Below are positions 4,942 to 34,318 of a stretch of DNA of 64,000 nt, in pieces. Location: the IMG/VR virus record IMGVR_UViG_3300017705_000602; one strand, 5' to 3'. Source of the stretch: a virus (lineage: Duplodnaviria > Heunggongvirae > Uroviricota > Caudoviricetes). The notes under the pieces were generated by a model. The model was given only the letters and a program-made list of their open reading frames with translations. It was not told the origin of the DNA and ran no database searches. A program made the position numbers and the translations under genes. Within the stretch, counting starts at the first letter, position 1; every line of letters begins with the position of its first letter.

Positions 4942-5025
4942 GGAGTGGCTGAGCATTGGCGAGCTCACTTGGTTGTAACCCAAACGCCCCTGGCTGTGTC
5001 CGTTCGACTCGGACCTGCTCCACCA
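4942..5025 (+). tRNA. tRNA-Tyr (anticodon GTA), class II long variable arm
   Basis: acceptor ggagtgg/ctgctcc, loop ttGTAac, long variable arm, T-arm gtccg ttcgact cggac, CCA. Confidence 0.7.
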
Positions 5026-5794: not shown

Positions 5795-5865
5795 GGGGCG
5801 CGTCATGGATGCGGATGATCGTTTGCAACGATTAGAGCGGGGTTCGATTCCCCGGTGCTCCACCA
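5795..5865 (+). tRNA. tRNA-Ala (anticodon TGC)
   Basis: anticodon stem gatcg/cgatt, loop ttTGCaa, T-arm cgggg ttcgatt ccccg, acceptor ggggcgc/gtgctcc with G-U pairs, CCA; D-arm irregular. Confidence 0.55.
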
Positions 5866-6893: not shown

Positions 6894-6952
6894 GCCCTGG
6901 TAGCTCAGTTGGATTAGAGCATGCCGCTACGAACGGTAAGGCCGCAGGTTCA
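6894..6952 (+). pseudogene. tRNA-Arg (anticodon ACG) 5' fragment, truncated inside the T-loop at the HNH gene boundary
   Basis: intact acceptor 5' strand, D-arm, anticodon arm tgccg-ctACGaa-cggta and T-stem 5' strand gcagg-ttca; sequence then runs into tgataaatatatgcATG; no matching 3' acceptor found. Confidence 0.55.
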
Positions 6953-6966
6953 TGATAAATATATGC

Positions 6967-7644
6967 ATGGACTATACAAAACATTATGACGCCCTTATCG
7001 AACGTGCAAAACAGCGTGTGTTAACATGCTATACAGAAAACCATCATGTGATACCGAAATGCTTAGGTGGCAACGATACCAAAGAAAACATCGTGATGTT
7101 ACTACCGGAAGAACACTATGTAGCGCATCAGCTATTGGTAAAAATTTATCCTGGTAGTAAACAGCTTTTGTATGCGGCACTAATGATGACAGTTTCATCG
7201 GCAAGTGTTAAGCGTAAAAATAAAGCTTATAAATGGTTAAAAGAAAAATACCACTTGGTGTGCAAAGAAAGAACCGGTGTAAAAAATCCATCGTATGGTA
7301 AACCTTGGTATCACAATCCAGAAAATGGCGAATCGGGTAAATTTGAAGAAGATCAGCAACCCGTTGGATGGGTTAGAGGTCGAGTAAAGAAACCTAAAAG
7401 ATATTGCATTAAATGCAACACAGAAATTAATACATCTGTTGCTAAATGGTGCAACGAATGTAGACCAAAGAAAACTAAGAGTGTAATACGATCGGCTAAA
7501 CAAAAAGAAAAGTATTCTGAAGCTGATAAAATTAAAGCACTTAAAGAAAATAACGGTAATATAAGGCAGGCACTTTATAGCTTAGGTTTAAACGACAGCG
7601 GCTGGCATTATCGTAAAATGAAAGATTTATTAAGTAAGATTTGA
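6967..7644 (+). CDS. HNH homing endonuclease (paralog of 19865..20563)
   Basis: HHVIPKCLGGNDTKENIVML..EEHYVAH HNH motif, C-terminal CxxC..CxxC; start chosen by alignment with the paralog (MDYTKHYD / MDYKKLYY). Confidence 0.8.
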   Translation: MDYTKHYDALIERAKQRVLTCYTENHHVIPKCLGGNDTKENIVMLLPEEHYVAHQLLVKIYPGSKQLLYAALMMTVSSASVKRKNKAYKWLKEKYHLVCKERTGVKNPSYGKPWYHNPENGESGKFEEDQQPVGWVRGRVKKPKRYCIKCNTEINTSVAKWCNECRPKKTKSVIRSAKQKEKYSEADKIKALKENNGNIRQALYSLGLNDSGWHYRKMKDLLSKI

Positions 7645-7724
7645 GCGGTTGTATTCCCTCTGGCTACGAACCAGTTGAAAGGATAATTGGACACATGTAG
7701 GTTCGACTCCTACCTGCCGCGCCA
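7645..7724 (+). other. tRNA-like element immediately after the HNH stop codon (irregular; probable tRNA remnant or atypical tRNA)
   Basis: perfect T-arm gtagg ttcgact cctac, 3' acceptor ctgccgc + g + CCA, and a hairpin ctgg-ctACGaa-ccag carrying the same Arg-ACG anticodon loop as 6894 fragment; no room for a normal D-arm. Confidence 0.35.
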
Positions 7725-18451: not shown

Positions 18452-18808
18452 ATGCGTCTGTGGCGTTGGGGGTATGATCAGTTTAGAACTGGTTATAGAA
18501 TATTCACAATTGCTTATATAAAGGCGCTTAGATGGGATATATATTTGTTTCATTATCCCGAAGGGTCGTTTATACCTAAGCATAAAGATCCTTCAAAGTA
18601 CGGCAAGCATTACCGTTTTAATATAACTCTTAAACGACCTGAACAGGGCGGCGAGTTTATTTGCAACAATGTAGTGTTTAGATGGTGGAGATTTTGTTTG
18701 TTTAGAGCAGATGCAAATTACCACCGCGTAACTCGAATTGAAAAAGGTAGCCGTTGGATACTAAGCTTCGGTTTTACATTTAAGCATGACAAAAGTTCAA
18801 ATCGGTAA
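18452..18808 (+). CDS. small 2OG-Fe(II) oxygenase-like protein (paralog of 4609..4941)
   Basis: FIPKHKDPSKYGKHYRFNITLK HxD...H pattern shared with the 4609 paralog. Confidence 0.5.
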   Translation: MRLWRWGYDQFRTGYRIFTIAYIKALRWDIYLFHYPEGSFIPKHKDPSKYGKHYRFNITLKRPEQGGEFICNNVVFRWWRFCLFRADANYHRVTRIEKGSRWILSFGFTFKHDKSSNR

Positions 18809-19415
18809 TAACAGCATGGAACTTCCGGAAGGCCCAATTGGGCTTTCCTTTTCTACCGGTCTCGATAGTACAATTTTGTTGTACTTGCTTGCACAGCAAG
18901 TAAAGTCGGATTTACATTTGTTTACTATAAGTGTTCATTCTCGAGACCTACATGCAATCAAGTATTCGGCAGATATACTCAATTGGGTAATTGCACAAAC
19001 AGGTAAAACAAACATTTATCTGCATGTGACTGTAAAGCAAGATGCCGACGATGCATTAGGCAATGCAGGATTATACAAGACACCGGCTGAATATTTAGCA
19101 AGAGGCTTAATCAACTGCGTAGTAACTGGACATAACAGTTTACCGCCCGATGAAATCGATCTAGGATGGCCTGCAAAAGATTCGCACGATTACAAAATTC
19201 GAACTCCGCACGAACAGCGCGATATCGAATTTGCAACAAATTGGTTCAGTCCATTGACAAACTGCAACAAGAAACAGATTGCAGAACTTTTTTTAGAAAA
19301 TGGTGCATTAGCACTTGCGAAAAAGACTAATAGCTGTTATACTTCGTATAACGAAGAGCCATGTAAGCAGTGCTTTGCTTGTAAAGAAAAATTCTGGGGC
19401 TTTGGGTTTTACTAA
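18786..19415 (+). CDS. QueC-like PP-loop ATP pyrophosphatase, paralog 1 (degenerate PP-loop)
   Basis: N-terminal LSFSTGLDSTILLY (variant of SGGxDS) and C-terminal Zn-ribbon CYTSYNEEPCKQCFACKEKFWGFGF matching QueC TCY..GCGxCxxCxxRxxGF. Confidence 0.6.
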   Translation: MTKVQIGNNSMELPEGPIGLSFSTGLDSTILLYLLAQQVKSDLHLFTISVHSRDLHAIKYSADILNWVIAQTGKTNIYLHVTVKQDADDALGNAGLYKTPAEYLARGLINCVVTGHNSLPPDEIDLGWPAKDSHDYKIRTPHEQRDIEFATNWFSPLTNCNKKQIAELFLENGALALAKKTNSCYTSYNEEPCKQCFACKEKFWGFGFY

Positions 19416-19470
19416 GATAAATAGGTAGACAAATCTCACTTGATAAGTTACAATATGCACTTATTAGATA

Positions 19471-19668
19471 ATGAGTAAAAAAATGTCAGCACCAACAAAA
19501 GACGAAATGTTCAAGCGTTTATGCAATGCAGTCTTGTACTGGGATAAAATAGACCAGCAATTCTTTGCTGACAATCCGACATATTTTGTAACAGATATTA
19601 AAAACTTCGCTAATCAGATACGAGAGTATCAAACGGAGTACCCGGAATCACTCAACGAAGATAAATAA
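19471..19668 (+). CDS. small hypothetical protein
   Basis: 65-aa ORF. Confidence 0.4.
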   Translation: MSKKMSAPTKDEMFKRLCNAVLYWDKIDQQFFADNPTYFVTDIKNFANQIREYQTEYPESLNEDK

Positions 19669-19677
19669 ACATATAAT

Positions 19678-19808
19678 GCGGGCGTAGCTCAGTTGGATTA
19701 GAGCAACGGTTGTTTAAATGTCCCCTGTGCCGACACCGGTCTTCTAAACCGGAAGCATAAAAAACGTTGGGTTGGAGCTGGGAGGTTCGACTCCTCCAGG
19801 GGATGCCA
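19678..19808 (+). other. composite tRNA-like region upstream of HNH gene
   Basis: 19678-19710 = normal tRNA 5' part (acceptor gcgggcg, ta, D-arm gctc agttggatta gagc). Further on: perfect hairpin ccggt-ctTCTaa-accgg, perfect T-arm ggagg ttcgact cctcc, then aggggat-g-CCA (matches gtcccct at 19718). No canonical cloverleaf. Confidence 0.35.
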
Positions 19809-19864
19809 TTTTTAAAATCTGTGATAAATACTTTTACTTTAATGTTAGAAGTAGAAGAATTATC

Positions 19865-20563
19865 ATGGATTATAAGAAATTATACTATTCGATTATTGAA
19901 AAGCGACAAAGGTGTACACCTACTGGATATACTGAAAAACATCATATTGTCCCAAGGTCGTTAGGTGGTACTAATGACAAAGAAAATTTAGTTAAGTTAA
20001 CTGCTAGAGAGCATTTTCTTTGTCATTACTTGCTTGCAAAAATGTATAGCAAAGAATCAGTTGAATGGTATAAAATGAATCATGCATTTTTAATGATGAA
20101 GTCATCGTCGGCAACACAACAACGGTACTTTAATTCGAAACTGTATGAAAGCTTAAAAGTGAATATGTCGTTTGTGATGTCAGAATCACAAACGGGCAAC
20201 AGGAACTCTCAGTACGGAAAGCGATGGATACACTCTGTGGAGTTACAGAAATCTGTTAAAATTCCTAAGGATGATCCTTTACCTGACAACTGGAAAGAAG
20301 GCAGAAGAGTTAACTGGGATCTTGTTAAAACATGCCCACAATGCGGTACAGAGTTTTTAAAGAGTTTAAAGAAGTACTGTTCGGATGATTGCAAGGATAA
20401 GGCAACTAATCCTTTCCGTGGTAAAGAACAAGAGTTTTTAGAATTGTATGCGGAGTACCAGAGCATGAACAAAGCCTTAAAGGCAATGGGATACCCTGGT
20501 GCAATTAGTCATTATTACCGTTGGGCGAAATCGGTTATAGGTAATAACAATTCAAATGTTTGA
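19865..20563 (+). CDS. HNH homing endonuclease (paralog of 6967..7644)
   Basis: HHIVPRSLGGTNDKENLVKL..REHFLCH motif; C-terminal CPQCGT..C..C zinc finger. Confidence 0.8.
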   Translation: MDYKKLYYSIIEKRQRCTPTGYTEKHHIVPRSLGGTNDKENLVKLTAREHFLCHYLLAKMYSKESVEWYKMNHAFLMMKSSSATQQRYFNSKLYESLKVNMSFVMSESQTGNRNSQYGKRWIHSVELQKSVKIPKDDPLPDNWKEGRRVNWDLVKTCPQCGTEFLKSLKKYCSDDCKDKATNPFRGKEQEFLELYAEYQSMNKALKAMGYPGAISHYYRWAKSVIGNNNSNV

Positions 20564-20659
20564 TAAATAGTTTTAACAAAGAATTCGACCGACAAACGGA
20601 ATTTCGCTACCGAAAGTCAGGTGTCGAACCGCCCGGGGTAGTGCCCGGGCACTTACAAT

Positions 20660-20743
20660 GTGGGTGCGCATCGGCGAGCAAAGCGGTCTCCAAAACCGTG
20701 GCCTTAATCGGCCTTGAGGGTTCGAATCCTTCCACCCGCGCCA
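20660..20743 (+). tRNA. tRNA with CCA anticodon (Trp-type), atypical 84 nt with extra variable hairpin
   Basis: acceptor gtgggtg/cacccgc (G-U at pos 2), anticodon stem gcggt/accgt, loop ctCCAaa, variable hairpin ggcc-ttaatc-ggcc, T-arm gaggg ttcgaat ccttc, CCA; D-arm not canonical. Confidence 0.5.
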
Positions 20744-20749
20744 TTTTAT

Positions 20750-20825
20750 GCGTCTGTAGTTCAGTTGGTAGAACGTTGTCCTTCCAAGTCAAATGTCGCA
20801 GGTTCGAATCCTGTCAGACGCTCCA
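20750..20825 (+). tRNA. tRNA-Gly (anticodon TCC)
   Basis: acceptor gcgtctg/cagacgc perfect, D-arm gttc agttggta gaac, loop ctTCCaa (one internal stem mismatch), T-arm gcagg ttcgaat cctgt, CCA. Confidence 0.65.
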
Positions 20826-20917
20826 CTCTTTTTCCCACAAACCTCTTTACACTGCAATGTCATTCGTGTATTTTATTATTTAGAACTATAATAAATAAAC
20901 ATCTACAAGGATACAGT

Positions 20918-21325
20918 ATGTCTCTAATATCATGGACTGGCAATGTGAAAGTTTCATATCCAGACAAAGACGATGAACAACAAGCATTGCTATTGATGCT
21001 GACACGAGATCACTCAACTATTGAACTCTGGTCCGGTGAAATAAAAACACAAAAAGTTGTCGGTAGTAAACCAGTTAAGAGAGTTAAAGTACGCAAGCAA
21101 ATACACGGATCGAACGTGTTAATTGACATTGGTATCAAAGATTTTCATAACTATGCAACAAATGTATTCCGGCCGCATCCTTCGTCAGACACATTAATTT
21201 CAGTCAGTGCAAACGGCAAAATGAATTTCACGTTTGATCAGATAACTGAACTGAACTTGGTAATAAAAGAAGCGTACGGTGTGTACTTACAACAACTAAA
21301 GCAAGAGCAAGAAAATGATTCATAA
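20918..21325 (+). CDS. hypothetical protein
   Basis: ATG 20918 after AAGGAT; the track ORF start at 20714 lies inside tRNAs. Confidence 0.5.
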   Translation: MSLISWTGNVKVSYPDKDDEQQALLLMLTRDHSTIELWSGEIKTQKVVGSKPVKRVKVRKQIHGSNVLIDIGIKDFHNYATNVFRPHPSSDTLISVSANGKMNFTFDQITELNLVIKEAYGVYLQQLKQEQENDS

Positions 21326-22342: not shown

Positions 22343-23172
22343 AAACGATACCTGCAGACGAGCCGGTGCTGGTAGACGATATTGCAGTTATGACATACAA
22401 CGAATCTCGTGTTATGTCGCAGTATTGGCGTGCCGGTGAATCGTTATGGAAAGGTGTTATGCCATGTAACAGTTTCCAGCTTTTGCACGAAAACAGTATA
22501 CGCCAAACAGTATTCGGGTACTTTGTTAATCAGTGTTTTCGATGCTCAGTAGATGAAATTGCAGATGACGATATCACAGTTAACAATTATTGGCTTGAAA
22601 TACTACCTAAGATTTTGTGGTTATGCGAAGAATGGTTAACCAAAAAACAATTTGTTGAACCCCTTATGGCGCACTGGAATCCCCGAATACAAAAGAATGT
22701 GGTACATCCTGGAATGTCACGTGCAAGTGTGATGCATCTGTTTCCGCAAGGACTTACTGAATTCTCAGTGGTGTATTTTAATACCGGCGGTGGATACGAT
22801 CGCAACACAATGAACAAGCTGAGAAAAATTACAATAGACGATTTAATCGACGATGGCTGGAACACAATGACATTTGTCGCCGACCACGAATCTCTTATTC
22901 CGCATTTTTCAAAAAATATTGAAGCAAATGCAAACTACAAAAAAGATTACCATCGTAAGATAATCGAACGGCTATCGTCAATGTCGATAGAAACAAATAC
23001 TAAAGACACTATATTTACAGATCCGCTGTCAGCTTGGATTAAAAGAAACGGTAACGTACAAATTATTTTCACCGATCAAGAACCGGGTCCGTTAGCACAA
23101 GCAAGGGCATTGTTGTGTGCATTGTTAGGAAAAACGTACACAGACCATGAAGTAAAAGTATCATGCAATTAG
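22327..23172 (+). CDS. hypothetical protein
   Basis: 281-aa from ATG 22327 (AAGGACG RBS); immediately upstream of and overlapping the radical SAM gene. Confidence 0.5.
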   Translation: MEPEMKTIPADEPVLVDDIAVMTYNESRVMSQYWRAGESLWKGVMPCNSFQLLHENSIRQTVFGYFVNQCFRCSVDEIADDDITVNNYWLEILPKILWLCEEWLTKKQFVEPLMAHWNPRIQKNVVHPGMSRASVMHLFPQGLTEFSVVYFNTGGGYDRNTMNKLRKITIDDLIDDGWNTMTFVADHESLIPHFSKNIEANANYKKDYHRKIIERLSSMSIETNTKDTIFTDPLSAWIKRNGNVQIIFTDQEPGPLAQARALLCALLGKTYTDHEVKVSCN

Positions 23173-24128
23173 AGCGAGCAGTAATCGAAATTGCAGGAGG
23201 TTGCAATTACACCTGCGGAATGTGTCCTCAGAGCACAGGACGTGGCAAAGACTTTACCAAAAAGATGTCGGTATCTCATTTTGCTCAACTGCTCGACGAG
23301 ATTGTGGACAAGTATGGCAGCCCTCAGATTAATTTAGAAGGCTCAGGTGAGCCCACTATCAATCGAGATTTACCTTTGTATATACGAGAATGCACAAAGC
23401 GCAATCTTAAAAGTTTCATGTATACAAATGGTGCAAGGTTTAAAGGTAAACTGATGACCGATTCCATTGACGCCGGATTGTCTTTTGTTAGATTCAGTTG
23501 CATTGGCTACAATCGTGAGACTTATAAAAAATGGATGAGTCGTAACAACTTCGATTTGCTGATAAAAAATGCTATTGCTACACAGCAATACATACAGCAG
23601 ACTGAATCAAACTGCACAGTGAGCAGTTATCACCTAATACTAGACAACGCTAACATCGAGTACGAGATCGAGCAGTATCGGCGTAACTTTATTGAGCAAG
23701 TCGAATCAGTTGCGTATATCTGGAAAATGCACAACTGGAGCGGAAACATACAGCCAATATATCTGAGAGATACTTCCGATCGCAGAACATGCGGACGTCC
23801 ATTTGCACCCGAAATAACCATACGAGCCGGTGGCCTAGATGGTAAATACGGAGCAGTAACACCTTGTTGTCAAACTATGGGTCCACCGCACGAAGCCGAA
23901 AGCGTGCTAGGGCATACTTCTGTAAACACAATTGAAGAAATATTTACAGGAGAAAAATATGAGCAATTACGAAAAGCTCATAGACAACAAGACTTTGATA
24001 GTGTATCATATTGCAAAGATTGTGATTTCTTGTATGAAGACCCTGAGGTTCTAGTATGGAGTAACGATACTAGTGCAACAACAAATCACATGCTTGGAAC
24101 AAATTTTAATTTAGAAGATTACAAATAA
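23163..24128 (+). CDS. radical SAM enzyme with C-terminal SPASM/twitch-like Cys cluster
   Basis: N-terminal CNYTCGMC (Cx3Cx2C) in GGCNYTCGMCPQS; C-terminal Cys-rich region TCGRP...TPCCQTMG...SYCKDCDF. Confidence 0.7.
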   Translation: MQLERAVIEIAGGCNYTCGMCPQSTGRGKDFTKKMSVSHFAQLLDEIVDKYGSPQINLEGSGEPTINRDLPLYIRECTKRNLKSFMYTNGARFKGKLMTDSIDAGLSFVRFSCIGYNRETYKKWMSRNNFDLLIKNAIATQQYIQQTESNCTVSSYHLILDNANIEYEIEQYRRNFIEQVESVAYIWKMHNWSGNIQPIYLRDTSDRRTCGRPFAPEITIRAGGLDGKYGAVTPCCQTMGPPHEAESVLGHTSVNTIEEIFTGEKYEQLRKAHRQQDFDSVSYCKDCDFLYEDPEVLVWSNDTSATTNHMLGTNFNLEDYK

Positions 24129-24328: not shown

Positions 24329-24994
24329 ATGCGAATTGAACTGCTCGGAAATGATTATATTGACATACCCAACGATACCAGTGTAGGTGTCGGATTTAGC
24401 GGTGGTGTTGATTCTACTTTGTTATTGTACATAATGTTGCTATACTCGCCGCATACTGTATTTCCGCTTACTATAACAGTTAACAATCGTTATCATCGCC
24501 ATAAGCAAGTGGCATCGGAAGTTCTTGAACTGTGCTGTAATGAAACAGGCAACCACGAAGTTATACATTCGGCAATACATTGCAACGATATTGATTTAGA
24601 AAATGGCACTAACCCTACTGCATTAAAACAAAACTGGTTTTTAAAGTCTGGCATGATCAGCACTTTGTTTCTTGGTACTAACCAGTTACCACCAGCTGGT
24701 CATATACACACTGAAGACTTTCGACACAATCACACTGACGAGTACTATCGGCGAGAACCCGGTGTGTTAAAAGCTACTAGTACCCACGGTGGTGCATTTC
24801 AGTTGCCACTCATTAATTATGACAAACGACAAATCTGCGAGCTGTACAGAAAGTTTGGTATATCAGATGAAATATACAAGCGCACATGGTCTTGCTCGAC
24901 TATACTCAGTGACAAGGATTGGAATGTAAATAGACATTGTGGGAAATGCGGCCCTTGTCACGAACGTATTTTTGGGTTTGGAAAAATAGAATAG
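24329..24994 (+). CDS. QueC-like 7-cyano-7-deazaguanine synthase family PP-loop ATPase, paralog 2
   Basis: canonical PP-loop VGFSGGVDSTLLLY; C-terminus WSCSTILSD..HCGKCGPCHERIFGFG matches QueC zinc motif. Confidence 0.7.
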   Translation: MRIELLGNDYIDIPNDTSVGVGFSGGVDSTLLLYIMLLYSPHTVFPLTITVNNRYHRHKQVASEVLELCCNETGNHEVIHSAIHCNDIDLENGTNPTALKQNWFLKSGMISTLFLGTNQLPPAGHIHTEDFRHNHTDEYYRREPGVLKATSTHGGAFQLPLINYDKRQICELYRKFGISDEIYKRTWSCSTILSDKDWNVNRHCGKCGPCHERIFGFGKIE

Positions 24995-33597: not shown

Positions 33598-33762
33598 GTC
33601 TTAGCGGGCAAATGCTGTACAGTTGTTTAAAAGGTTGTGGTTAAACACATTCTTGAAAGACGGTCGAAAAGTAGTCTTAGCAGACGAAACGGCAGGTAGC
33701 GTAGTGCATTTGGTACCTCAAAAGGGTATCGACCATTTCTAGGGCGCACGTTACAGATGGTT

Positions 33763-33836
33763 ATTCAAGTTAGCTCAGTTTGGTAGAGCAAATGACTCTT
33801 AATCATTCGGTCGCAGGTTCAATTCCTGTATTTGAA
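33763..33836 (+). tRNA. tRNA-Lys (anticodon CTT), isolated from main array
   Basis: acceptor ttcaagt/atttgaa (U1-A72), D-arm gctc agtttggta gagc, anticodon stem aatga/tcatt, loop ctCTTaa, T-arm gcagg ttcaatt cctgt; no encoded CCA. Confidence 0.55.
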
Positions 33837-33839
33837 ATC

Positions 33840-34318
33840 AAAAAAGCAAAGACGCCCTGGGATAGTAAGAAAGAGTAAATGGCTTAATTGTCCTAACCCG
33901 CAAGGGAATTAGGAATGTACGAAGCTCGCAAGGCAGAATACATTTTGTTGGAAGTTGCACGTTGTAGTCGAATACTTAACAGCTCGCAAGGCTGGCGGTA
34001 AACCAATAGCAGAAACGCTTACTATCAAGAACTTCGGTTCGACATGAAACGCCACATGTAAAAAGGCAGCCATGCTTGGAGACGATTGCGTGTCGAAAGA
34101 CAGCAAAAGTGGATGAGAAGTAAATCCGTAGGGTCGCACCGAAGGAGTAACACTTCAAACGTCCGAGTGTATTAGCTGTAATTCTCAAGCTAATAAACCT
34201 TGCTTATATCAATACAGAATATATCGGATATAAGTAATGTACTGGGTATCATACGAAACTACCACTAATATATAGAATACATATACGTAGAAAAGTCGCT
34301 GATATCGCGAGTACCAAA
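33840..34318 (+). ncRNA. candidate structured non-coding RNA region (uncharacterised)
   Basis: ~480 nt without credible ORF downstream of two strong promoters and a tRNA; duplicated 12-mer agctcgcaaggc (33925, 33978); ends at terminator 34319-34347. Confidence 0.3.

What the first reader, a model, noticed from the sequence alone, without database searches (positions are those of the whole stretch)
19678..20743. Second HNH endonuclease flanked by tRNA halves; possible intron-containing or split tRNA
Upstream of HNH #2 lies a normal tRNA 5' part (acceptor gcgggcg, D-arm) that never completes. Next comes a perfect anticodon-type hairpin (ctTCTaa) and a perfect T-arm ending in CCA. Downstream at 20660-20743 is an 84-nt tRNA(CCA). 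Its 3' acceptor cacccgc pairs 6/7 with the upstream 5' acceptor, and its accgt strand complements the upstream acggt. The two halves could belong to one tRNA interrupted by a ~1-kb insertion carrying the HNH ORF, as in a group-I-intron/homing-endonuclease arrangement. Alternatively the region holds a pseudo-tRNA plus an atypical tRNA-Trp.
Basis: partly seen in the sequence, partly recalled or inferred. Interest (0 to 1): 0.6.

Follow-up and report, generated by a model that had tools for sequence, protein, structure and literature searches.

The report
Homing endonuclease cassette replacing a phage tRNA-Arg
The "tRNA halves" around this HNH gene are not one split tRNA: a mobile homing-endonuclease cassette destroyed the phage's normal tRNA-Arg(UCU) gene, leaving a 5' stump beside an odd replacement tRNA-like gene with the same anticodon and no D-arm, and the downstream 84-nt tRNA(CCA) is a separate conserved gene.

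Summary
Its main reading, one tRNA split by an HNH-bearing intron, is refuted; its fallback (pseudo-tRNA plus atypical tRNA-Trp) is essentially right.

- **Relatives without the HNH.** They carry, at the same place, an intact 78-nt tRNA-Arg(TCT), then a conserved ~78-nt element, then the same 84-nt tRNA(CCA).
- **The orphan 5' piece (19678-19705).** It matches 26/28 bases of that tRNA-Arg, so it is a relic.
- **No intron.** No group I intron core is detected.
- **The piece next to the relic (19720-19808).** It is a conserved tRNA-like gene with a 7-bp acceptor stem, a CUUCUAA anticodon arm, a T arm and an encoded CCA, but no D-arm.
- **The HNH.** It is a free-standing Mob-like homing endonuclease. 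The cassette is 87% identical between phages whose backbones are 68% identical, and one relative keeps only a deletion footprint of it.
- **The pattern recurs.** HNH #1 (6967-7644) follows a truncated tRNA-Arg(ACG) and is followed by a D-arm-less ACG tRNA-like gene. A cultured Vibrio phage has a tRNA-Thr stump, a homologous HNH, then a full tRNA-Thr.

Best reading: homing endonucleases target phage tRNA genes and travel with divergent, probably cleavage-immune replacement alleles. Whether the D-arm-less RNAs work as tRNAs is inferred, not shown.

The parts
19678..19719 (+). Relic of the resident canonical tRNA-Arg(TCT) gene. It holds the acceptor 5' strand, D-arm, anticodon-stem 5' strand and a degenerate loop (TGTTTAA), then stops.
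   Evidence: 26/28 identical to the first 28 nt of the intact 78-nt tRNA-Arg(TCT) of L008, which sits at the same genomic place. L004 and L012 carry different relics at the same place: 29/29 to L092 tRNA-Arg and 22/23 to L016 tRNA-Arg.
19720..19808 (+). S-TCT, an 89-nt D-arm-less tRNA-like gene. Order of parts: acceptor GTCCCCT/AGGGGAT; 9-nt linker; anticodon arm CCGGT-CTTCTAA-ACCGG (UCU = Arg); 28-nt extra region; T arm GGAGG-TTCGACT-CCTCC; G73; encoded CCA.
   Evidence: Sequence read. Rfam gives only tRNA-Sec at 29.9 bits, below the gathering score of 47. ARAGORN calls it only at a relaxed threshold and with another fold. It is conserved in L004/L007 (identical), L089/L093 and L012-15, and every substitution that falls in a stem keeps the pairing, including one double change.
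19823..19836 (+). GATAAATACTTTTA motif upstream of the HNH ORF. It is a near-copy of the motif at 20562-20575 and is probably a promoter-like element duplicated by the insertion.
   Evidence: the two best matches in the 64-kb window flank the HNH ORF. HNH-free L008 has a single copy between tRNA-Arg and element E.
19865..20563 (+). HNH #2, a free-standing Mob-like HNH homing endonuclease of 232 aa.
   Evidence: phrog_655 E 4.7e-42 and Pfam HNH above its cut-off. The tblastn hits lie under features annotated as homing, Mob-like or MobE endonucleases in phage records. It is 87% aa identical to the L004 copy. It is absent from L008, L016, L092 and L095, and reduced to a footprint in L089.
20562..20575 (+). 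GATAAATAGTTTTA motif overlapping the HNH stop codon; right-hand junction of the insertion.
20582..20659 (+). Element E, a conserved non-coding element directly upstream of the tRNA(CCA). It belongs to the backbone and is not part of the HNH insertion.
   Evidence: Present in every relative, with or without the HNH. The 3' GC hairpin has three pairs with compensatory changes. No Rfam match.
20660..20743 (+). Independent 84-nt tRNA(CCA) with a 3-bp mini D-arm and a long variable arm, G73 and encoded CCA.
   Evidence: ARAGORN call. The same gene is present in HNH-free relatives. Of 25 pairs, 97.3% of cells are paired and 5 pairs show double compensatory changes; slid controls give 41-59% and none.
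20750..20825 (+). Canonical tRNA-Gly(TCC); backbone gene.
   Evidence: Rfam tRNA 70.8 bits and ARAGORN.
6894..6951 (+). Second example: relic of a canonical tRNA-Arg(ACG), complete up to the T loop (..GCAGG-TTC) and then cut.
   Evidence: Sequence. It is 81-84% identical to the first 63 nt of the intact 78-nt tRNA-Arg(ACG) at the same place in L100-L103.
6967..7644 (+). HNH #1, a paralogous Mob-like homing endonuclease (38% identical to HNH #2).
   Evidence: phrog_655 E 3.4e-47; pairwise comparison. It is absent from L100-L103.
7645..7724 (+). S-ACG, an 80-nt D-arm-less tRNA-like gene with a CTACGAA anticodon loop (ACG = Arg), T arm GTAGG-TTCGACT-CCTAC, G73 and CCA. It starts directly after the HNH #1 stop codon.
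   Evidence: Sequence. Rfam tRNA 25.1 bits, below the gathering score of 29. Constrained fold.

Best explanation
The window comes from a marine jumbo myophage with a large tRNA cluster. A free-standing Mob-like HNH homing-endonuclease cassette has invaded the tRNA-Arg(UCU)/tRNA-Trp interval at 19.7-20.6 kb.

The resident canonical tRNA-Arg(UCU) gene was destroyed and only its 5' third survives, as the orphan 'half'. In its place sits S-TCT, a sequence-unrelated tRNA-like gene with the same UCU anticodon loop, a 7-bp acceptor stem, a T arm and an encoded CCA, but no D-arm. The HNH gene lies immediately downstream of it. The 84-nt tRNA(CCA) further downstream is an independent backbone gene.

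Proposed mechanism, inferred by analogy with T4 SegB. In mixed infections the endonuclease cuts the canonical tRNA gene of endonuclease-free relatives. Repair copies the endonuclease gene together with the neighbouring divergent tRNA allele. That allele escapes cleavage because its DNA no longer resembles the target. The 5' relic marks the left recombination junction inside the old gene. The replacement allele is proposed to serve as the phage's tRNA-Arg(UCU).

Shown here: the homology of the relic, presence/absence of the HNH, the jump in identity across the cassette, the deletion footprint, conservation of S-TCT, and recurrence of the arrangement.

Inferred: the cleavage target, the immunity of the replacement allele, and its aminoacylation and decoding.
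For: 1. **Empty sites.** L008/L010, L016, L092 and L095 have an intact tRNA-Arg(TCT), sometimes a small ORF, element E, then a tRNA(CCA), and no HNH.
2. **Relics.** Three different 5' relics each match a relative's canonical tRNA-Arg(TCT): 26/28, 29/29 and 22/23. They have different break points but the same S-TCT follows each.
3. **Mobility.** Window against L004 is 67.7-67.9% identical in the flanks and 87.3% across 19659-20832. The HNH is 87% aa identical, against 61% for the adjacent backbone protein. L089/L093 keep S-TCT, 53/56 nt of the HNH leader and the last ~42 nt of the ORF; the rest is deleted.
4. **S-TCT conservation.** The CTTCTAA loop is invariant and 100% of cells are paired in 22 pairs. 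The anticodon-stem pair 21:29 changes U-A to C-G. One-sided changes at 1:85, 2:84 and 13:49 all keep pairing.
5. **Need for the gene.** No canonical tRNA-Arg exists in the window. ACG- and TCT-decoded codons make up 93% of Arg codons. Counting the atypical genes, the cluster covers all 20 amino acids.
6. **Recurrence.**
   - HNH #1 has a tRNA-Arg(ACG) relic before it and a D-arm-less ACG tRNA-like gene after it; relatives have the intact gene.
   - Vibrio phage VB_VaC_SRILMA has a tRNA-Thr(TGT) relic, a homologous HNH, then a complete divergent tRNA-Thr(TGT).
   - L104 and L100 show other endonuclease families next to replaced tRNA-Lys and tRNA-Asp/Asn alleles.
7. **Precedent.** T4 SegB cuts tRNA genes and co-converts flanking tRNA genes (PMC2330249). 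E. coli HisRS, EF-Tu and the ribosome accept a D-arm-less tRNA (PMC11551756).
Against: - No endonuclease activity, target site or transcript is known for this cassette.
- S-TCT is known from only 3 distinct sequences. Its covariation measures are not separated from shuffles (182/500), and recent horizontal transfer alone could explain the high identity.
- Its minimum-free-energy fold is a different, non-tRNA fold, and the energy is no better than shuffles (z -0.67).
- S-ACG is a single sequence with a 4-bp anticodon stem and a U.U mismatch in the acceptor stem.
- In E. coli, ArgRS recognition depends on A20 in the D loop (from memory), which these RNAs lack.
- L012-15 carry the relic and S-TCT without any HNH, so the S-TCT/HNH linkage is not absolute.
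- In HNH #2 the replacement lies upstream of the endonuclease, whereas in HNH #1 and the Vibrio phage it lies downstream. The histories may therefore differ.
Confidence: 0.7

Rival explanations
1. The 5' piece at 19678-19710 and the 3' part of the 84-nt gene are exons of one tRNA interrupted by a ~1-kb group I intron, or a split-gene insertion, that carries the HNH ORF.
For: The complementarities exist in this window: acceptor 6/7 and anticodon stem 5/5. HNH ORFs are common in phage group I introns (general knowledge).
Against: - No intron family matches at E<=10.
- HNH-free relatives have two complete separate tRNAs, not one.
- The 5' piece is homologous to tRNA-Arg(TCT).
- The 84-nt gene has its own paired 5' strand, with compensatory changes in L016.
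- By my reading of the L004/L007 sequences, the complementarity disappears there.
- No junction gives a U-ending exon with a G-ending intron.
Confidence: 0.02
2. The D-arm-less units (S-TCT, S-ACG) are decaying pseudo-tRNAs or recombination debris with no function. The phage relies on host tRNA-Arg, and the region is simply scar tissue from endonuclease traffic.
For: - They fail Rfam tRNA and default ARAGORN.
- Folding energy is no better than shuffles.
- Relics show the region does accumulate debris.
- Few independent sequences are available.
Against: - The anticodon loops are perfect (CUUCUAA and CUACGAA, with U33 and A37), and the T loops, 7-bp acceptor stems, G73 and encoded CCA are intact, as in all other tRNAs of this phage.
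- All five stem substitutions among S-TCT variants preserve pairing.
- S-TCT persists after loss of the HNH (L089, L012).
- The two anticodons are exactly those needed for 93% of Arg codons.
- The true relics, by contrast, are truncated and their loops degenerate.
Confidence: 0.15
3. The tRNA-like units are not decoders. They are processing or regulatory signals for the endonuclease mRNA (RNase P/Z cleavage sites, as proposed for segB/tRNA-Arg in T4), or decoys for host tRNA-targeting defence nucleases.
For: - S-ACG begins at the base after the HNH #1 stop codon.
- The Vibrio tRNA-Thr overlaps the 3' end of the HNH ORF.
- The SegB paper proposes control of segB by tRNA processing (PMC2330249).
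- Phage tRNAs are known to counter anticodon nucleases (PMC10264068, PMC11464382).
Against: - A processing signal would not need an exact same-anticodon loop matching the destroyed gene.
- S-TCT lies upstream of HNH #2 and persists where the HNH is gone.
- These roles do not exclude a decoding role.
Confidence: 0.13

Closest known systems
Phage T4 SegB, a GIY-YIG homing endonuclease in the T4 tRNA gene cluster (PMC2330249). The same paper mentions the T5 endonucleases F-TflI and F-TflII, whose ORFs also lie in a tRNA gene cluster.
   Same: A free-standing endonuclease ORF embedded among phage tRNA genes. It is absent from close relatives. The targets are tRNA genes, and flanking tRNA genes are co-inherited. 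The endonuclease ORF abuts a tRNA, so tRNA processing can cut its mRNA.
   Different: The enzyme here is an HNH (phrog_655, Mob-like), not a GIY-YIG. The resident tRNA gene is left as a truncated 5' relic. The co-travelling allele is not a normal tRNA but a D-arm-less one with the same anticodon. Cleavage has not been tested here.
T4-type Mob HNH endonucleases (MobA-E). This includes Aeh1 MobE, whose insertion splits nrdA into two functional pieces (from memory; Aeh1 MobE is cited in PMC2330249).
   Same: Same protein family by similarity: the tblastn hits lie under features annotated as Mob-like or MobE endonucleases, and the ORF matches phrog_655. Homing is intron-less, and insertion can disrupt a gene while its function is preserved by another route.
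   Different: The target here is a tRNA gene. Function is apparently preserved by a non-homologous replacement gene rather than by a split product.
Group I introns in bacterial tRNA anticodon loops (for example cyanobacterial tRNA-Leu(UAA)) and HNH-bearing phage group I introns (from memory).
   Same: An HNH ORF lies between tRNA-looking sequences, and the break in relic #2 is at the anticodon loop.
   Different: There is no intron core, no exon continuity and no intron-less continuous allele in relatives. This locus is not a member of that class.
D-arm-lacking mitochondrial tRNAs (for example metazoan mt-tRNA-Ser(AGY) and nematode mt-tRNAs; PMC7609411) and the engineered 'mini HisT' accepted by E. 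coli translation (PMC11551756).
   Same: Acceptor, anticodon and T arms are retained, and a short linker replaces the D-arm. The proposed extension of the anticodon helix by pairing of the linker with the extra region (helix X) resembles the models for mt-tRNA-Ser (from memory).
   Different: The gene is encoded by a virus of bacteria, and PMC11551756 states that all known bacterial tRNAs are canonical. It has a 22-28-nt extra region containing a D-loop-like TTGGA. It is linked to homing endonucleases. Function is unproven.
Integrative elements that insert into tRNA genes and carry a replacement segment that restores the gene (general knowledge).
   Same: The mobile DNA disrupts a tRNA gene and supplies a substitute, leaving a partial duplicate.
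   Different: There is no integrase or att sites. The substitute is a whole, structurally different gene, and the leftover piece is the 5' part of the old gene.

Membership tests
   The Rfam scan of 19300-21100 on both strands, with E up to 10, found no intron family.
   HNH-free relatives have two separate complete genes, tRNA-Arg(TCT) and tRNA(CCA). The 5' piece is homologous to tRNA-Arg. By my reading of the L004/L007 sequences, the complementarity is lost there.
   Direct reading. Within the shared 'cggt' no junction gives a U-ending exon together with a G-ending intron.
Free-standing HNH homing endonuclease (T4 Mob-like, phrog_655) | HNH catalytic motif and family-level sequence similarity | tested here: met
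   Pfam HNH 22.3 bits (cut-off 21.4); phrog_655 E 4.7e-42. The tblastn hits lie under features annotated as homing, Mob-like or MobE endonucleases.
Free-standing HNH homing endonuclease (T4 Mob-like, phrog_655) | Presence/absence polymorphism at one locus among related genomes, with signs of the gain-decay-loss cycle | tested here: met
   Present in the window, L004/6 and L007. Absent in L008, L016, L092 and L095. Reduced to a deletion footprint in L089/L093.
Free-standing HNH homing endonuclease (T4 Mob-like, phrog_655) | The cassette is more similar between genomes than the flanking backbone (recent lateral spread) | tested here: met
   87.3% against 67.7-67.9% nucleotide identity. HNH 87% aa against 61% for the neighbouring protein. 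Part of the high-identity block is structural RNA, which is also conserved in HNH-free relatives.
Free-standing HNH homing endonuclease (T4 Mob-like, phrog_655) | Site-specific cleavage of the endonuclease-free allele and preferential inheritance in crosses | not testable with these tools
   This needs purified protein and phage crosses.
Canonical (cloverleaf) tRNA, applied to S-TCT 19720-19808 | 7-bp acceptor stem, discriminator base and CCA | tested here: met
   GTCCCCT/AGGGGAT, then G, then CCA. Pairing is kept in all variants.
Canonical (cloverleaf) tRNA, applied to S-TCT 19720-19808 | 5-bp anticodon stem with a 7-nt loop, U33 and a purine at 37 | tested here: met
   CCGGT-CTTCTAA-ACCGG. 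The closing pair covaries, U-A to C-G.
Canonical (cloverleaf) tRNA, applied to S-TCT 19720-19808 | T arm with a TTCRA loop | tested here: met
   GGAGG-TTCGACT-CCTCC, invariant across variants.
Canonical (cloverleaf) tRNA, applied to S-TCT 19720-19808 | D-arm (3-4-bp stem with a GG-containing loop) between the acceptor and anticodon stems | tested here: not met
   Only 9 nt (GTGCCGACA) lie between the two stems. The Rfam tRNA model does not match; tRNA-Sec scores 29.9, below 47. Default ARAGORN is silent.
Canonical (cloverleaf) tRNA, applied to S-TCT 19720-19808 | Aminoacylation and decoding | not testable with these tools
   This needs tRNA-seq, acid gels or in-vitro charging.

The most novel reading that the evidence does not exclude
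The D-arm-less RNAs S-TCT and S-ACG are working tRNA-Arg isoacceptors in a bacterial host. They would be the first natural non-cloverleaf elongator tRNAs used by bacterial translation. They would exist because homing endonucleases that recognise tRNA-gene DNA select for alleles that keep tRNA function while losing DNA resemblance to the target. In that case an endonuclease/target arms race is what drives the structural oddities seen across this phage group's tRNA cluster: loss or shrinkage of the D-arm, and extra variable arms in the tRNA(CCA) and tRNA-Asn.
Probability: 0.35. Interest if true: 0.85.

Novelty: new variant of a known kind. Interest (0 to 1): 0.62.

Why it matters
Homing endonucleases inside phage tRNA clusters are known from T4 SegB and T5. 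This locus adds a concrete picture of what such traffic does to the tRNA genes themselves. A canonical tRNA gene is left as a stump, and a same-anticodon gene of very different sequence and shape takes its place.

If the D-arm-less RNAs are charged and used, three things follow.
- They contradict the statement that all tRNAs used in bacteria are cloverleaves (PMC11551756).
- They give natural templates for minimal or orthogonal tRNAs.
- They suggest selfish endonucleases as a driver of tRNA structural evolution.

There is also a practical point. Standard tRNA finders miss at least five tRNA-like genes in this window: Arg twice, Tyr and Ala, with Trp only barely called. Phage tRNA repertoires may therefore be systematically under-counted.

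Tried and rejected
- **Nearest relatives.** Near and distant BLAST of the region against INPHARED phages found no relative of the locus, only HNH and tRNA-Gly similarities.
- **IMG/VR (viral contigs).** All of the following found nothing: exact or pattern scans for the relic, the S-TCT T-arm, S-TCT core and element E, and a related-locus search with the QueC-like neighbour. HNH #2 gave only two distant loci there.
- **Bacterial and archaeal genomes.** A scan of GTDB genomes for the S-TCT core found nothing.
- **15-mer scan for element E.** Hits in IMG/VR were mostly chance. Nine loci share the CGG-AAUUUCGCUA-CCG hairpin in another small element. I considered a link to the tmRNA tRNA-like domain, from remembered similarity to AUUCGAC and GGAAUUUCG. 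Rfam gives no tmRNA match on E or on that element; the permuted tmRNA in L030/L035 lies 1.4 kb away. I dropped the idea as untestable here.
- **Alternative fold of S-TCT.** A fold with a mini hairpin GCCG-ACAC-CGGU and a 5-nt-loop arm is the minimum-free-energy structure and resembles ARAGORN's relaxed call (tRNA-Val 'aac'). I set it aside because it gives a non-canonical anticodon loop and turns the 21:29 double change into two unrelated changes.
- **Relic as a D-arm donor for S-TCT.** Rejected because the L012 relic is cut inside the D loop and L089 has no relic at all.
- **Covariance model of S-TCT.** It found no further copies in 214 kb of held sequence. S-ACG and canonical tRNA-Arg genes score only 24-27 bits.
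- **Inner fold of element E.** It could not be settled. Three competing helices use GUCGAA, and only the 3' hairpin covaries.
- **Solved structures.** No solved structure is close to the HNH by sequence.
Full report
**1. Observation**

- 19678-19710 reads gcgggcg-ta-gctc-agttggatt-agagc-a-acggt, a normal acceptor 5' strand, D-arm and anticodon-stem 5' strand. No matching 3' half follows.
- Next come a hairpin ccggt-cttctaa-accgg and a T arm ggagg-ttcgact-cctcc, ending aggggat-g-cca.
- ORF 19865-20563 is an HNH protein: Pfam HNH 22.3 bits (cut-off 21.4) and phrog_655 'homing endonuclease' E 4.7e-42. Its tblastn hits lie under features annotated as homing, Mob-like or MobE endonucleases.
- ARAGORN calls an 84-nt tRNA(CCA) at 20660-20743 and a normal tRNA-Gly(TCC) at 20750-20825.

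The hairpin and T arm form a closed unit, 19720-19808, with its own 7-bp acceptor stem (gtcccct/aggggat). The 84-nt gene also has its own 5' acceptor strand (gtgggtg) and anticodon-stem strand (gcggt).

**2. Source and relatives**

The window is from a marine jumbo myophage. Its tail sheath is 50% identical to that of Pseudomonas phage PA5oct. There is no close relative among deposited phages.

Using the 135-aa protein encoded just downstream, I fetched syntenic metagenomic contigs from several diverged lineages. L001-L003 are identical to the window.

**3. Decisive comparison**

HNH-free relatives carry two separate, complete genes at the same place.
- L008/L010, L016 and L092: a normal 78-nt tRNA-Arg(TCT), in some a small ORF, a conserved ~78-100-nt element (E), then the same 84-nt tRNA(CCA).
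- L095/L096: a normal 77-nt tRNA-Arg(TCT), a small ORF, element E, then a different tRNA(CCA)-like gene.

The window's orphan piece 19678-19705 matches 26/28 bases of the first 28 nt of the L008 tRNA-Arg(TCT). It is therefore a relic of tRNA-Arg(UCU), not the missing 5' half of the tRNA(CCA).

L004/L007 carry the same cassette behind a different relic, which is 29/29 to the L092 tRNA-Arg. By my reading of the L004/L007 sequence, its acceptor strand (GCGCCGG) and anticodon strand (GCGCA) do not complement the 84-nt gene. The 6/7 and 5/5 pairing seen in this window is thus a coincidence.

No intron family is detected at E<=10. No junction satisfies the U/G rule for group I splice sites. The split-tRNA/intron reading is refuted.

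**4. The unit 19720-19808 (S-TCT)**

Anatomy, in order:
- acceptor stem, 7 bp
- linker GTGCCGACA, 9 nt, in place of a D-arm
- anticodon arm CCGGT-CUUCUAA-ACCGG; the loop is identical to that of the canonical tRNA-Arg(UCU) genes of relatives
- a 28-nt A-rich extra region ending in GTTGGGTTGGAGCTG
- T arm with loop TTCGACT
- G73 and encoded CCA, as in nearly every other tRNA of this phage

How tRNA finders treat it:
- The Rfam tRNA model does not match; tRNA-Sec scores 29.9 bits, below the gathering score of 47.
- ARAGORN finds it only at a relaxed threshold and with another fold.

The same gene is present in three other lineages:
- L004/L007, where it is identical
- L089/L093, 3 changes, with no relic in front
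- L012-15, 6 substitutions and one 1-nt gap, behind a third relic cut in the D loop that is 22/23 to the L016 tRNA-Arg

Nine alignment columns vary. Five lie in proposed helices and all five keep pairing:
- 21:29 changes U-A to C-G, a double change
- 1:85 changes G.U to G-C
- 2:84 changes U-A to U.G
- 13:49 changes G.U to G-C; this pair is in a proposed 'helix X' in which CCGAC of the linker pairs with GTTGG of the extra region and stacks on the anticodon stem

With only three distinct sequences the shuffle control is not significant (182/500). The fold energy is unremarkable (z -0.67). The structural evidence is therefore suggestive, not strong.

**5. The HNH is mobile**

- It is present in the window, L004/6 and L007, and absent in L008, L016, L092 and L095.
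- In L089/L093 it is reduced to a footprint: 53/56 nt of its 5' leader, an ATG, and the last ~42 nt of the ORF.
- Window against L004 is 67.7-67.9% identical in the backbone and 87.3% over 19659-20832.
- The HNH proteins are 87% identical, against 61% for the adjacent backbone protein.
- The ORF is flanked by near-copies of GATAAATA(C/G)TTTTA; HNH-free L008 has one copy.

These are the signatures of a free-standing homing endonuclease going through gain, decay and loss.

**6. The 84-nt tRNA(CCA)**

It is a real, independent gene. Across the window/L008, L004 and L016, 97.3% of cells in 25 pairs are paired. Five pairs show double compensatory changes: two in the acceptor stem, two in the variable arm and one in the T stem. 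Slid controls give 41-59% paired and no compensatory changes.

It has a 3-bp mini D-arm (CGC-AUCG-GCG), a 16-nt variable arm and G73. In other relatives, element E is followed by three other structural types of tRNA(CCA), two of which ARAGORN misses. Which amino acid the 84-nt RNA carries is unknown.

**7. The arrangement recurs**

- **HNH #1 in this window (6967-7644; 38% identical to HNH #2; phrog_655).**
  - At 6894-6951 it is preceded by a canonical tRNA-Arg(ACG) that is complete to the T loop and then cut.
  - Immediately after its stop codon, at 7645-7724, lies a D-arm-less tRNA-like gene with a CUACGAA loop, the same TTCGACT T loop, G73 and CCA.
  - Relatives L100-L103 have an intact 78-nt tRNA-Arg(ACG) and no HNH there.
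- **Vibrio phage VB_VaC_SRILMA (PP083314.1).** The annotated homing endonuclease, 55.7% identical to HNH #2, follows an unannotated 5' relic of tRNA-Thr(TGT) cut right after the anticodon loop. It overlaps a complete but divergent tRNA-Thr(TGT).
- **L104.** A different HNH (phrog_10822) plus an atypical 74-nt tRNA-Lys replace the canonical tRNA-Lys.
- **L100 against L101.** A phrog_314 endonuclease is flanked by replaced tRNA-Asp and tRNA-Asn alleles, the latter 90 nt with a long variable arm.

**8. Need for the Arg genes**

No canonical tRNA-Arg is found in the window. Codons read by ACG and TCT anticodons make up 93% of Arg codons in 46 window ORFs. Three further genes complete the set:
- a tRNA-Tyr at 4942-5025 (Rfam 34.1 bits for 4942-5022; read)
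- a reduced-D-arm tRNA-Ala-like gene at 5795-5865
- the 84-nt tRNA(CCA)

With these the cluster covers all 20 amino acids, and Arg is represented only by the two D-arm-less genes.

**9. Mechanism proposed**

Shown:
- resident tRNA-Arg genes were disrupted
- mobile HNH cassettes sit at the breaks
- a same-anticodon but unrelated gene sits beside each
- the cassette spreads between diverged phages and decays

Inferred, by analogy with T4 SegB (PMC2330249):
- The HNH cuts the canonical tRNA gene of endonuclease-free co-infecting relatives.
- Repair from the donor copies the HNH and the adjacent divergent allele. The 5' part of the old gene acts as the left homology arm, which explains the lineage-specific relics. 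The highly conserved block of E plus tRNA(CCA) acts as the right arm.
- The replacement allele is immune because its DNA no longer resembles the target.
- It supplies tRNA-Arg function. PMC11551756 shows that E. coli HisRS, EF-Tu and the ribosome accept a D-arm-less tRNA, so this is not implausible. The lack of a D loop, which holds A20, the main ArgRS determinant in E. coli (from memory), is a real difficulty.

**10. Known versus new**

Homing endonucleases inside phage tRNA clusters are known: SegB in T4, and the T5 endonucleases mentioned in PMC2330249. Full-text searches found no description of 5' tRNA relics paired with same-anticodon replacement alleles, nor of D-arm-less tRNAs in phages. 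PMC11551756 states that all known bacterial tRNAs are canonical. I class this as a new variant of a known kind.

**11. Limits**

- Only three distinct S-TCT sequences and one S-ACG sequence are available.
- There are no expression or activity data.
- L012-15 carry S-TCT without an HNH.
- The order of replacement gene and HNH differs between the two cassettes.

Noticed in passing
window 33696-34191 (+): Full-length match to GOLLD RNA (RF02032): 147.3 bits against a gathering score of 150, E 1.9e-39. The ARAGORN tRNA-Lys(CTT) at 33764-33837, which has no encoded CCA, lies inside it.
   Followed up: no
window 20582-20659 (+); also L004, L007, L008, L012, L016, L089, L092, L095, L098: Element E is a conserved non-coding element directly upstream of every tRNA(CCA) type in all relatives. 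Its core is the invariant stretch GGAATTTCGCTACC, and its GC-rich 3' hairpin shows compensatory changes. L016 and L012 have an extra inserted hairpin. It has no Rfam match, its inner fold is unresolved and its function is unknown.
   Followed up: partly
L023, L028, L030, L031, L035, L069, L071, L072, L084 (IMG/VR contigs): An unrelated ~85-nt element (GGGGACGGTGCAAGCG...) ends in the same CGG-AAUUUCGCUA-CCG hairpin as element E and is followed by a terminator-like hairpin. It has no Rfam match. L030 and L035 also carry a permuted tmRNA (RF04321) 1.4 kb away.
   Followed up: partly
window 20660-20743; L012:5344-5417; L095:~2281-2362; L098:~141-222: The tRNA(CCA) after element E exists in at least four very different structural types among close relatives. 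The 84-nt type has a long variable arm plus G73, so whether it is a TrpRS or a SerRS substrate is an open question. ARAGORN misses two of the types.
   Followed up: partly
window 4942-5025 and 5795-5865 (+): Two tRNA genes missed by ARAGORN. One is a type-II tRNA-Tyr(GTA) (Rfam 34.1 bits for 4942-5022). The other is a 71-nt tRNA-Ala(TGC)-like gene with G3.U70 and a reduced D-arm. In relatives the tRNA-Ala is called with its anticodon at position 30-31.
   Followed up: partly
L100:4569-5472 versus L101:4563-4738: In two near-identical backbones, a phrog_314 homing endonuclease is flanked by replaced tRNA-Asp (81 nt) and tRNA-Asn(GTT) alleles. The tRNA-Asn allele is 90 nt with a long variable arm.
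   Followed up: partly
L104:1957-2619 versus L102:4976-5053: An HNH of another family (phrog_10822) plus an atypical 74-nt tRNA-Lys(TTT) replace the canonical tRNA-Lys. The replacement has T loop GTCAGTA and D-arm GCATTAAGGTGATGC, the same D-arm as the L012 tRNA-Trp. No relic is left.
   Followed up: partly
L108 (Vibrio phage VB_VaC_SRILMA, PP083314.1) 2434-2473 and ~2167-2238: There is an unannotated 5' relic of tRNA-Thr(TGT) just upstream of the annotated homing endonuclease. Further upstream lies an unannotated tRNA-like sequence ending in ACCA with a reduced D region.
   Followed up: partly
window 18786-19415, 23163-24128 and 24329-24994: QueC-like PP-loop proteins and a radical-SAM/SPASM protein are interleaved with the tRNA genes. 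They may be nucleoside or tRNA/DNA modification genes. The 209-aa QueC-like gene is absent from L089.
   Followed up: no
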